Assembly: GCA_950072105.1 (NCBI GenBank)
Contig: CATMOE010000028.1
Span: 1-45,781, forward strand
Direction: 5' to 3'
Length of the DNA: 45,781 nucleotides
DNA from: an uncultured Dehalococcoidia bacterium
Lineage (GTDB): Bacteria > Chloroflexota > Dehalococcoidia > Lucifugimonadales > UBA3495
The notes under the pieces were generated by a model. It did not search any database, was not told the DNA's origin, and saw nothing but the letters and a program-made list of their open reading frames with translations. Of this stretch, positions 1,986 through 2,441 are shown in pieces. Numbering within the stretch: the stretch's first letter is position 1; each line of letters opens with the position of its first letter. The translations under genes were made by a program, and so were the position numbers.

Positions 1986-2441
1986 TTATCTTCCCCGCAC
2001 CTCTTTAATCGCCCTGGCAATCTCTTCAGCGTCCAAAGCGATGTCGGCCAAGCCTACTTCCAGGTCGTAGGTGGCCGAGTCAATCTGTTCTTTGATCTCC
2101 GGTTCGGTGATGTGGTAGGCCGGGAGGCCCAGGGCCTCTCCTGCCAAAGCTCCGGCCCACGAGGGGTCGCCGTCGGTGACGGTGGTGGCGTAGAGCTTGG
2201 TGCTTTCGGGGGTGGGGGTGCCCAGTAGGACGACGAGGTTGTCGGTGCCTATCTGGTCTACGATCCGTTTGATATCTTCTTGACCCTCCAGGTCAAGAGC
2301 GCCGGCGGCGGTTCAAACGAAACAGTGGGTCATCTCCAAGACTACTTCCGCTCCGGAGCTGCGGGCGCAGTTGGCGATGGCGGTCCCTTGGACCCCGTCC
2401 CGTTCTCCCAGAGCGATTACTCTCATACCTTTGAGTTGCAT
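1986..2441 (-). CDS. grdA: Glycine/sarcosine/betaine reductase selenoprotein A (Sec at codon 43)
   Basis: SD AGGAGG, then MQLKGMRVIALGERDGVQGTAIANCARSSGAEVVLEMTHCFV-U-TAAGALDLEGQ...GDPSWAGALAGEALGLPAYHITEPE...RGR*. GERDG, CFVUTAAG.DLE and GDPxxAG are GrdA motifs. In-frame TGA at 2313-2315; 151 aa on read-through; adjacent to grdC. Confidence 0.93.
2278..2298 (-). promoter_or_regulatory. Candidate bacterial SECIS hairpin in grdA mRNA
   Basis: mRNA UCUUGACC-UGGAG-GGUCAAGA: perfect 8-bp stem with a G-rich loop, starting 14 nt after the UGA. Confidence 0.65.

What the first reader, a model, noticed from the sequence alone, without database searches (positions are those of the whole stretch)
1986..2441. 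Hidden selenoprotein GrdA: UGA recoding with a SECIS-like hairpin
Seen: strong SD, an in-frame TGA inside CFV*TAAG, GrdA-like sequence on both sides, and an 8-bp hairpin 14 nt downstream of the TGA. The ORF track missed this gene entirely. Known: GrdA carries a CxxU redox centre, and bacterial SECIS elements lie immediately 3' of the UGA. Inference: the organism decodes selenocysteine and should encode selA, selB, selC and selD elsewhere.
Basis: partly seen in the sequence, partly recalled or inferred. Interest (0 to 1): 0.75.

Follow-up and report, generated by a model that had tools for sequence, protein, structure and literature searches.

The report
Selenoprotein GrdA of GrdD-less reductase
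The apparent stop codon in this gene almost certainly codes for selenocysteine in GrdA, a well-known carrier protein of glycine-type reductases, but this oxygen-respiring bacterium and its relatives have no detectable gene for the subunit that makes acetyl phosphate, so their version likely releases acetyl-CoA from a substrate other than glycine.

Summary
Observation confirmed, on the minus strand. 2441..1986 encodes a 151-residue GrdA (above Pfam and NCBIfam cut-offs) with TGA at the CxxU site. All 10 relatives with grdA keep the TGA. The hairpin meets the four published bacterial SECIS rules, and its synonymous codons are frozen (3 of 3 against 0 of 32 elsewhere); no compensatory change was seen. 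The genome has selA, selB, selD and tRNA-Sec. That part is textbook.

The context is not. The gene follows grdC, and three grdB/grdE pairs lie on other contigs, but grdD is missing: 0 of 11 close genomes and 0 of 401 class genomes (43 with grdC), against 6 of 6 Bacillota/Treponema controls. GrdC lacks its C-terminal tail. The three GrdE lack the pyruvoyl cysteine. Acetate kinase (1 of 33) and Pta (0 of 33) are also missing. Best model, untested: GrdA carries a carboxymethyl group from a non-glycine substrate to the thiolase-fold GrdC, which gives acetyl-CoA.

The scan found this GrdD-less branch before on other DNA (57 notes match the words). I did not find it in print. New variant of a known kind.

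The parts
1986..2441 (-). grdA, selenoprotein A, 151 aa, Cys40-Phe-Val-Sec43
2313..2315 (-). in-frame TGA, codon 43, read as selenocysteine
   Evidence: kept in all relatives parsed
2278..2298 (-). SECIS hairpin inside the coding region: 9 pairs (one U-G), GGA loop, begins 14 nt after the TGA
   Evidence: fits the four constraints read in PMC13188914
2450..2456 (-). Shine-Dalgarno AGGAGGT, 8 nt before the grdA ATG
2463..2530 (.). dispersed palindromic repeat in the grdC-grdA spacer (approximate ends); incidental
   Evidence: 66 blastn hits on 45 contigs; loose ends at 2463
2550..4004 (-). grdC, protein C beta subunit, 484 aa, thiolase/KAS III fold, short form without the C-terminal tail; Cys262, His377, His431
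   Evidence: NF040746 649 bits; model pLDDT 91.3; fold matches; motifs
3219..3221 (-). codon of GrdC Cys262, aligned with the nucleophilic Cys of KAS III enzymes

Best explanation
The window carries a grdC-grdA gene pair whose grdA very likely has its TGA read as selenocysteine, and which likely serves as the shared back half of a GrdD-less, glycine-reductase-type system predicted to turn substituted acetates into acetyl-CoA. Shown: the gene, CxxU site, hairpin, Sec machinery, three grdB(Sec)/grdE pairs on other contigs, no grdD, ackA or pta hit, and a cytochrome c oxidase. From knowledge of the family: SelB binds the hairpin and inserts Sec; the Sec of GrdB displaces the leaving group of X-CH2-COO-; the carboxymethyl group passes to Sec43 of GrdA; protein C cleaves the C-Se bond, leaving GrdA oxidised (Cys40-Sec43), and thioredoxin resets it. 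Inferred, untested: without GrdD, the thiolase-fold GrdC takes the acetyl group on Cys262 and passes it to CoA. Because the three GrdE lack the pyruvoyl cysteine, X is likely a ready leaving group (trimethylammonium as in betaine, a sulfonium, a halide), each GrdB/E pair taking a different substrate. The likely purpose is carbon uptake or detoxification in an aerobe, not fermentative ATP. Odds by step: Sec recoding 0.98; GrdD truly absent 0.9; substrate not glycine 0.8; acetyl-CoA made by GrdC 0.5.
For: Recoding. One system: among 40 genomes the same 11 have grdA and grdC and all 11 have a long GrdB match; one more, 67% complete, has GrdB only; in G001, G010, G011, G016, G004 and G027 grdB/grdE lie beside grdC-grdA. 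GrdD absent: best own hit 27 bits against cut-off 350, which is PlsX (PF02504); 0 of 11 over cut-off, three of them single-contig; 0 of 401 class genomes at E 1e-20, of which 43 have grdC; the same model scores 515-560 bits in 6 of 22 genomes behind fetched loci, those titled Bacillota, Clostridia, Eubacteriales or Treponema. A profile from those six GrdD finds only PlsX in the genome; in 5 of 5 control loci grdD directly follows grdC. GrdC changes with it: tail from the GSLFL motif 20-32 aa in 54 GrdD-less loci against 54-61 aa in 5 controls; His at 377 in 50 of 54 against Gln in 5 of 5; the two sets are split by one branch, SH-aLRT 100, quick tree of 41 rows. No usual outlet for acetyl phosphate: acetate kinase in 1 of 33 and Pta (PF01515) in 0 of 33 GrdD-less genomes, each in 4 of 6 controls. 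Fold: thiolase/KAS III, best Z 22.8, rmsd 4.2 over 277 residues; Cys262 aligns with the KAS III cysteine (hhalign 85% to the genome's thiolases). GrdE: GNCVSAC in 4 of 4 controls, 0 of 17 GrdD-less. Precedent: FarE/FarB of Cloacibacillus lack the same cysteines and are linked to fluoroacetate (PMC10838667). Aerobe: COX1 532 bits.
Against: No enzyme activity, substrate or product was tested. Cys262 is also kept in 5 of 5 GrdD-bearing GrdC, so it does not by itself show a new acyl-transfer role. His377 is Gln in 4 of 54 GrdD-less loci, and its match to the thiolase NEAF/HDCF position is by eye only: hhalign gave 0.7% for that region. No CoA-binding residues were mapped. The controls are only 5-6 genomes; the 33 GrdD-less genomes fall in 9 families and are not independent, and I did not test whether relatives without grd also lack ackA and pta. 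PduL-type Pta was not searched. G085 has no GrdD yet a canonical GNCVSAC GrdE, so GrdD loss does not imply a non-glycine substrate everywhere. G000 is 92% complete with 6% contamination. Neighbours of the three grdB/E pairs point to no single substrate. Two TrxB hits fall just under cut-off (340, 334.5 against 343).
Confidence: 0.5

Rival explanations
1. Recoding and GrdD loss are as above, but an unlinked protein replaces GrdD: the housekeeping PlsX (its homologue) or an unrelated acyltransferase. GrdC keeps only its usual job.
For: PlsX is the only GrdD-like hit in nearly all these genomes. The system is already scattered over four contigs here, so a partner need not be linked. GrdC's cysteine is shared with GrdD-bearing systems.
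Against: The PlsX match covers about 90 residues at about 30% and lies in a lipid-gene context; G027 has no such hit; acetyl phosphate would lack AckA and Pta; GrdC lost its tail; no other gene is constant beside grdC-grdA in the 10 neighbourhoods listed.
Confidence: 0.22
2. GrdC works alone but hydrolyses the acetyl group to free acetate, or only unloads GrdA. The system is a detoxifying or deconjugating route, with acetate taken up afterwards by acetyl-CoA synthetase.
For: Fits the loss of GrdD, AckA and Pta equally well; no CoA site was shown; several non-pyruvoyl GrdB/E pairs suggest varied substrates.
Against: It wastes a thioester. The closest folds are CoA/ACP acyl-transfer enzymes, though a shared fold shows no function.
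Confidence: 0.18
3. An ordinary glycine/sarcosine/betaine reductase whose grdD is in an assembly gap or too diverged to detect.
For: G000 is an incomplete draft (92%, 164 contigs); GrdA, GrdB, GrdC and GrdE all pass family cut-offs; databases label the homologues glycine or betaine reductase.
Against: No grdD in 43 of 43 grdC-bearing class genomes, many single-contig, while the other subunits stay 42-50% identical to the controls; grdA, not grdD, follows grdC.
Confidence: 0.08
4. The TGA is a nonsense mutation or a real stop, and grdA is a pseudogene or two short genes.
For: The hairpin's energy alone is not far from chance and shows no compensatory change.
Against: TGA at the same place in every homologue parsed, over several phyla; protein conserved on both sides; frozen synonymous sites; complete Sec machinery.
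Confidence: 0.02

Closest known systems
Selenoprotein A (GrdA, PF04723, NF040748) of clostridial glycine/sarcosine/betaine reductases
   Same: Full-length match above cut-off, CxxU at 40-43, in-frame UGA with a hairpin directly 3', 44-52% identical to Bacillota and Treponema GrdA.
   Different: The residue before CxxU is His/Gln/Tyr/Leu, never the Glu seen in 5 of 5 GrdD-bearing controls; the SECIS is a tight CUUGACC/GGUCAAG stem not seen in those controls; the host has a cytochrome c oxidase.
Glycine reductase complex GrdA + GrdB/GrdE + GrdC/GrdD + TrxA/TrxB (Clostridioides difficile, Peptoclostridium acidaminophilum; described in PMC9908766 and PMC13188914)
   Same: GrdA, GrdB (Sec), GrdE and GrdC present; Sec machinery; thioredoxin reductase homologues elsewhere.
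   Different: No GrdD; GrdC about 30 aa shorter; GrdE without the pyruvoyl cysteine; two of three GrdB read U-G-T-S-T-R-S instead of UxxCxxC; no AckA or Pta hit; genes scattered.
Betaine reductase GrdH/GrdI, and the fluoroacetate reductase FarB/FarE of Cloacibacillus porcorum (PMC10838667)
   Same: Protein B without the pyruvoyl-forming cysteines; FarB also lacks CxxC; several protein B pairs feeding one GrdA and protein C.
   Different: Those are anaerobes described as making acetyl phosphate through the common reductase; orthology of the three pairs here to GrdH/I or FarB/E was not tested.
Thiolase / KAS III superfamily (FabH, OleA, PqsBC, SpoVAD)
   Same: Fold of the GrdC model (Z about 21-23) and the position of Cys262.
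   Different: 12-22% identity, about 150 extra residues; the second and third catalytic positions are not firmly mapped; no solved GrdC or GrdA in the PDB copy.

Membership tests
GrdA selenoprotein A | Full-length match above the curated cut-off | tested here: met
   PF04723 179.9/22; NF040748 182.5/130
GrdA selenoprotein A | CxxU motif with Sec encoded by UGA | tested here: met
   C40-F-V-U43; TGA in 11 of 11
GrdA selenoprotein A | Selenium actually incorporated | not testable with these tools
   needs proteomics or 75Se
Bacterial SECIS (consensus model in PMC13188914) | 3-9 nt loop, 4-16 bp stem, G in first two loop positions, 16-37 nt from UGA to loop, MFE at most -7.5 kcal/mol | tested here: met
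   loop GGA (or UGGAG), 8-9 bp, 22-23 nt, -16.5 kcal/mol for the folded window
Bacterial SECIS (consensus model in PMC13188914) | Structure supported by compensatory changes | tested here: inconclusive
   100% paired, 6 of 7 pairs never vary, one A-to-G keeps a U-G pair, 0 two-sided changes in 11 genes
Sec-decoding organism | selA, selB, selC, selD in the genome | tested here: met
Glycine/sarcosine/betaine reductase complex | Protein B: Sec-containing GrdB plus GrdE | tested here: met
   three pairs on C45, C78, C13, each grdB with TGA
Glycine/sarcosine/betaine reductase complex | Protein C beta subunit GrdC | tested here: met
   NF040746 649/450
Glycine/sarcosine/betaine reductase complex | Protein C alpha subunit GrdD | tested here: not met
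   positive control
Glycine/sarcosine/betaine reductase complex | Acetyl phosphate as product, used through acetate kinase | tested here: inconclusive
   product not testable; no acetate kinase or Pta hit in G000
Glycine/sarcosine/betaine reductase complex | Thioredoxin system as reductant | tested here: inconclusive
   two TrxB hits just under cut-off, unlinked
Glycine or sarcosine reductase (pyruvoyl type) | GrdE proprotein with the cleavage cysteine (GNCVSAC in the controls) | tested here: not met
   0 of 3 own GrdE; 4 of 4 controls
Glycine or sarcosine reductase (pyruvoyl type) | UxxCxxC in GrdB | tested here: inconclusive
   present in 1 of 3 paralogues (C13), absent in C45 and C78
Betaine reductase GrdH/GrdI | Orthology of protein B to GrdH/GrdI, and activity on betaine | not tested
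   no characterised reference sequence was on hand
Thiolase/KAS III acyltransferases (GrdC works like) | Fold and nucleophilic cysteine | tested here: met
Thiolase/KAS III acyltransferases (GrdC works like) | C-terminal catalytic His/Asn pair and CoA-binding site | tested here: inconclusive
   His431 invariant in 113, His377 in 50 of 54; equivalence not significant by hhalign; CoA site not mapped

The most novel reading that the evidence does not exclude
A widespread branch of selenium-dependent reductases in oxygen-respiring marine Dehalococcoidia and other phyla has dropped GrdD and turned the thiolase-fold GrdC into a stand-alone enzyme that converts Se-carboxymethyl-GrdA directly to acetyl-CoA. 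With several interchangeable non-pyruvoyl GrdB/GrdE heads, it would be an unrecognised aerobic route for breaking down betaine-, sulfonium- or halo-acetates in the ocean, and the first clear catalytic role for GrdC.
Probability: 0.35. Interest if true: 0.75.

Novelty: new variant of a known kind. Interest (0 to 1): 0.42.

Why it matters
The recoded grdA alone matters only as an annotation fix: gene callers cut it. The system around it matters more. Glycine-type reductases are described as an anaerobe's way to make acetyl phosphate and ATP, and genome papers read grd genes that way. Here about a tenth of a sampled class (43 of 401) has grdC with no grdD, and the genomes tested mostly have no acetate kinase or Pta, so that reading is probably wrong for them. 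It also offers a simple system for an open question, what GrdC does, since GrdC can be assayed without GrdD.

Tried and rejected
Plus-strand reading: no GrdA-like product. Hairpin energy as proof: not significant at 61 and 81 nt. Covariation: none, the stem is nearly invariant. Rfam: no match in the window at gathering score. Solved structures: no relative of GrdA (best E 0.41); only KAS III hits for GrdC. Mapping GrdC His377 and His431 onto thiolase motifs by hhalign: global run failed, local run 0.7% for the C-terminal half; kept only as a by-eye resemblance (ELHNP against EVHDC and ELNEA in the genome's own thiolases). Expression: 14 RNA runs hold part of the stretch, but four laid runs are contigs and cover intergenic DNA and genes of both strands at similar depth, so DNA carry-over cannot be excluded and expression is not claimed. 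Promoter and terminator scan: one sigma-70-like site ending at 4014 before grdC, 2 found against 0.9 by chance; terminators at chance level. Substrate from neighbours: fumarase and succinate dehydrogenase subunits, isochorismatase, LUD, FAH, DUF255 thioredoxin-like, polysaccharide-deacetylase pair, GMC oxidoreductase; no consistent clue. No GrdA-GrdC complex model was obtained, so their contact is not modelled. The careful GrdC tree did not finish; the quick tree is unrooted and cannot say whether GrdD was lost or gained. Two primary papers on protein C were not held.

Full report
Observation. Read with TGA as selenocysteine, 2441..1986 gives 151 residues with C40-F-V-U43; table 11 lists only a 53-aa tail. 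It matches GrdA over residues 3-149 at 179.9 bits (Pfam, cut-off 22) and 182.5 bits (NCBIfam equivalog, cut-off 130). An AGGAGGT lies 8 nt before the ATG. The hairpin at 2298..2278 starts 14 nt after the TGA.

Is the TGA read as Sec? The genome (4.08 Mb, 164 contigs, 92% complete, 6% contamination) has selA, selB over positions 2-580 of 581, selD with its own in-frame TGA and tRNA-Sec. Of 40 genomes searched, 11 (this one included) have grdA, each with one TGA. In one search all 29 loci that the pattern parsed have TGA (30 tried; L059 not parsed), 27 of 29 further class loci have it and 2 were not parsed. None has Cys. The hairpin's energy is unremarkable (z -0.62 to -2.31) and it shows no two-sided change in 11 genes. 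But its codons CTT, CTG and GGT are invariant in 16 of 16 distinct Chloroflexota genes, against 0 of 32 other conserved codons of similar degeneracy, and CTT and GGT are minority codons here. It meets all four constraints of the bacterial SECIS model (PMC13188914, section 5 read).

The system around it. Upstream is grdC (649 bits). Three grdB/grdE pairs lie on contigs C45, C78 and C13, each grdB with a TGA at the Sec site. The same 11 of 40 genomes have grdA and grdC, and all have a long GrdB match; in six of ten neighbourhoods listed a grdB/grdE pair lies beside grdC-grdA, and in a seventh a grdE-like gene at the contig end. Here a low-GC stretch (43-46% against about 60%) with an SMC-like ATPase follows grdA instead. 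Record titles of close homologues say Chloroflexota or Dehalococcoidia, one says SAR202, and holders of the DNA are marine; I infer a SAR202-type marine Dehalococcoidia. It has a cytochrome c oxidase subunit I.

GrdD is missing. Protein C is described as encoded by grdC and grdD and as forming acetyl phosphate (PMC9908766, passages); that GrdD carries the acetyl-bearing Cys359 is recalled, not read. The GrdD model scores 27 bits here against a cut-off of 350, on PlsX. It passes the cut-off in 0 of 11 grdA genomes, three of them single-contig, and finds nothing at E 1e-20 in 401 class genomes of which 43 have grdC. As a control it scores 515-560 bits in 6 of 22 genomes behind fetched loci, the five Bacillota-type and one Treponema; the 16 others, titled Chloroflexota, Acidobacteriota, Actinomycetota and others, lack it. 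A profile of those six GrdD again finds only PlsX in this genome, and in 5 of 5 control loci grdD directly follows grdC.

Other parts change with it. GrdC ends 20-32 residues after the start of its GSLFL motif in 54 GrdD-less loci and 54-61 in 5 controls; the lost tail reads like a helix and may be the GrdD docking site (inference). Position 377 is His in 50 of 54 and Gln in 5 of 5 controls; among 120 close homologues of unknown GrdD status 111 have His. A quick tree of 41 GrdC separates the two sets by one branch (SH-aLRT 100), unrooted. Acetate kinase is found in 1 of 33 and Pta in 0 of 33 GrdD-less genomes (33 picked from those with grdC), each in 4 of 6 controls. These genomes are kin, in 9 families, and relatives without grd were not tested, so this shows only that acetyl phosphate has no usual outlet. 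The three GrdE lack the GNCVSAC site seen in 4 of 4 controls and 0 of 17 GrdD-less GrdE; two of three GrdB lack CxxC after Sec. One exception: G085 has no GrdD but a canonical GrdE.

Mechanism. The GrdC model (pLDDT 91.3) has the thiolase/KAS III fold (best Z 22.8, rmsd 4.2, 277 residues), and Cys262 aligns with the KAS III nucleophile. His431 is invariant in 113 sequences. ELH377NP and QGH431I resemble the thiolase NEAF/HDCF and GHP motifs (PMC7682436, passages), but the alignment there is not significant. I commit to: GrdB-Sec displaces a leaving group from a substituted acetate; GrdA-Sec43 carries the carboxymethyl group; GrdC cleaves it, holds acetyl on Cys262 and passes it to CoA; thioredoxin resets GrdA. 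The first two steps follow from the family; the third is inference, about 0.5. The nearest precedent for protein B without these cysteines is FarB/FarE, linked to fluoroacetate, and betaine GrdI (PMC10838667, part 2 of 4 of the text read). Against the model: Cys262 is kept in GrdD-bearing systems too, His377 is not universal, no CoA site was mapped and nothing was assayed. Rivals are an unlinked GrdD substitute (0.22), release of free acetate (0.18), an undetected grdD (0.08) and a pseudogene (0.02).

Novelty. GrdA: member of a known family, all testable features met. The complex: works like a betaine-type reductase but fails membership of the canonical complex on GrdD. In print, a Lost City preprint notes that GrdB of SAR202 Dehalococcoidia form a separate clade (10.1101/2022.01.25.477282, passages; no occurrence of 'grdD' in the main text; I did not see its supplementary Table S5, which may list subunits). 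PMC9751293 reports glycine reductases in serpentinite Dehalococcoidia (passages; 'grdD' absent; supplements not read). Searches gave no paper on a GrdD-less branch; the library lacks most subscription journals. PMC3091704 and PMC12674515 (passages) added nothing. The scan's own notes describe this branch in other genomes (57 notes match the words, 8 shown). I had found the GrdD gap before opening them; they prompted the GrdE and GrdB motif checks. What I tested beyond what those excerpts state: the 401-genome count with a positive control, the GrdC tail and His/Gln change, the lack of AckA and Pta, and the G085 exception.

Verdict. Observation confirmed, interpretation supported, ordinary in itself (about 0.15). 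With its context it is a new variant of a known kind; interest 0.42.

Noticed in passing
G000:C23:17631-22111: Array of 29 tRNA genes on one strand within 4.5 kb, duplicating the housekeeping set; looks like a mobile-element tRNA array.
   Followed up: no
window 2463-2530: Palindromic repeat in the grdC-grdA spacer with 66 blastn hits on 45 contigs; related spacers in the two same-genus genomes, not in short spacers of farther relatives.
   Followed up: partly
window 1-1800: Low-GC stretch (43-46%) with an SMC/AAA-type ATPase cut by the contig end; it sits where relatives have grdE-grdB facing grdA, and contig C13 ends just after such a pair, so an island may have split the cluster.
   Followed up: partly
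L125 (G085:C3:1-16000): A class relative with canonical pyruvoyl-type GrdE, a gene starting like trxB in the cluster, short GrdC, and no GrdD, AckA or Pta hit: a possible true glycine or sarcosine reductase without GrdD, and a good test case.
   Followed up: partly
L121, L122 (family f45): grdB-grdC-grdA with no grdE found beside them in 20 kb, followed by two similar short genes.
   Followed up: no
L058, L060, L062, L063 about 8460-8990: The grdB facing grdA is cut to its first 150-160 residues in four related Dehalococcoidia.
   Followed up: no
L049:8700-10967 (G019): grdC appears split after residue 50 by an inserted, transposase-like frame in a single-contig genome, while grdA is intact apart from a 5-residue deletion.
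   Followed up: no
G000:C105, C140, C31, C25 (L010-L013): Four short frames (155-215 aa) matching only the C-terminal part of GrdB; similar ones occur in many relatives that lack grdA and grdC.
   Followed up: no
L118:2398-4110, L048:3558-5291, L124:9551-11203: A DUF255 thioredoxin-like gene follows grdB in three genomes; a candidate dedicated reductant.
   Followed up: partly
window 4116-4637: Small protein with a likely signal peptide and four RTX calcium-binding repeats, divergent from grdC; a similar gene holds that place in several relatives.
   Followed up: no
G000, whole genome: No frame of 250 aa or more carries both FabH motifs used in a pattern search; a weak test, FabH was not searched by profile.
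   Followed up: no
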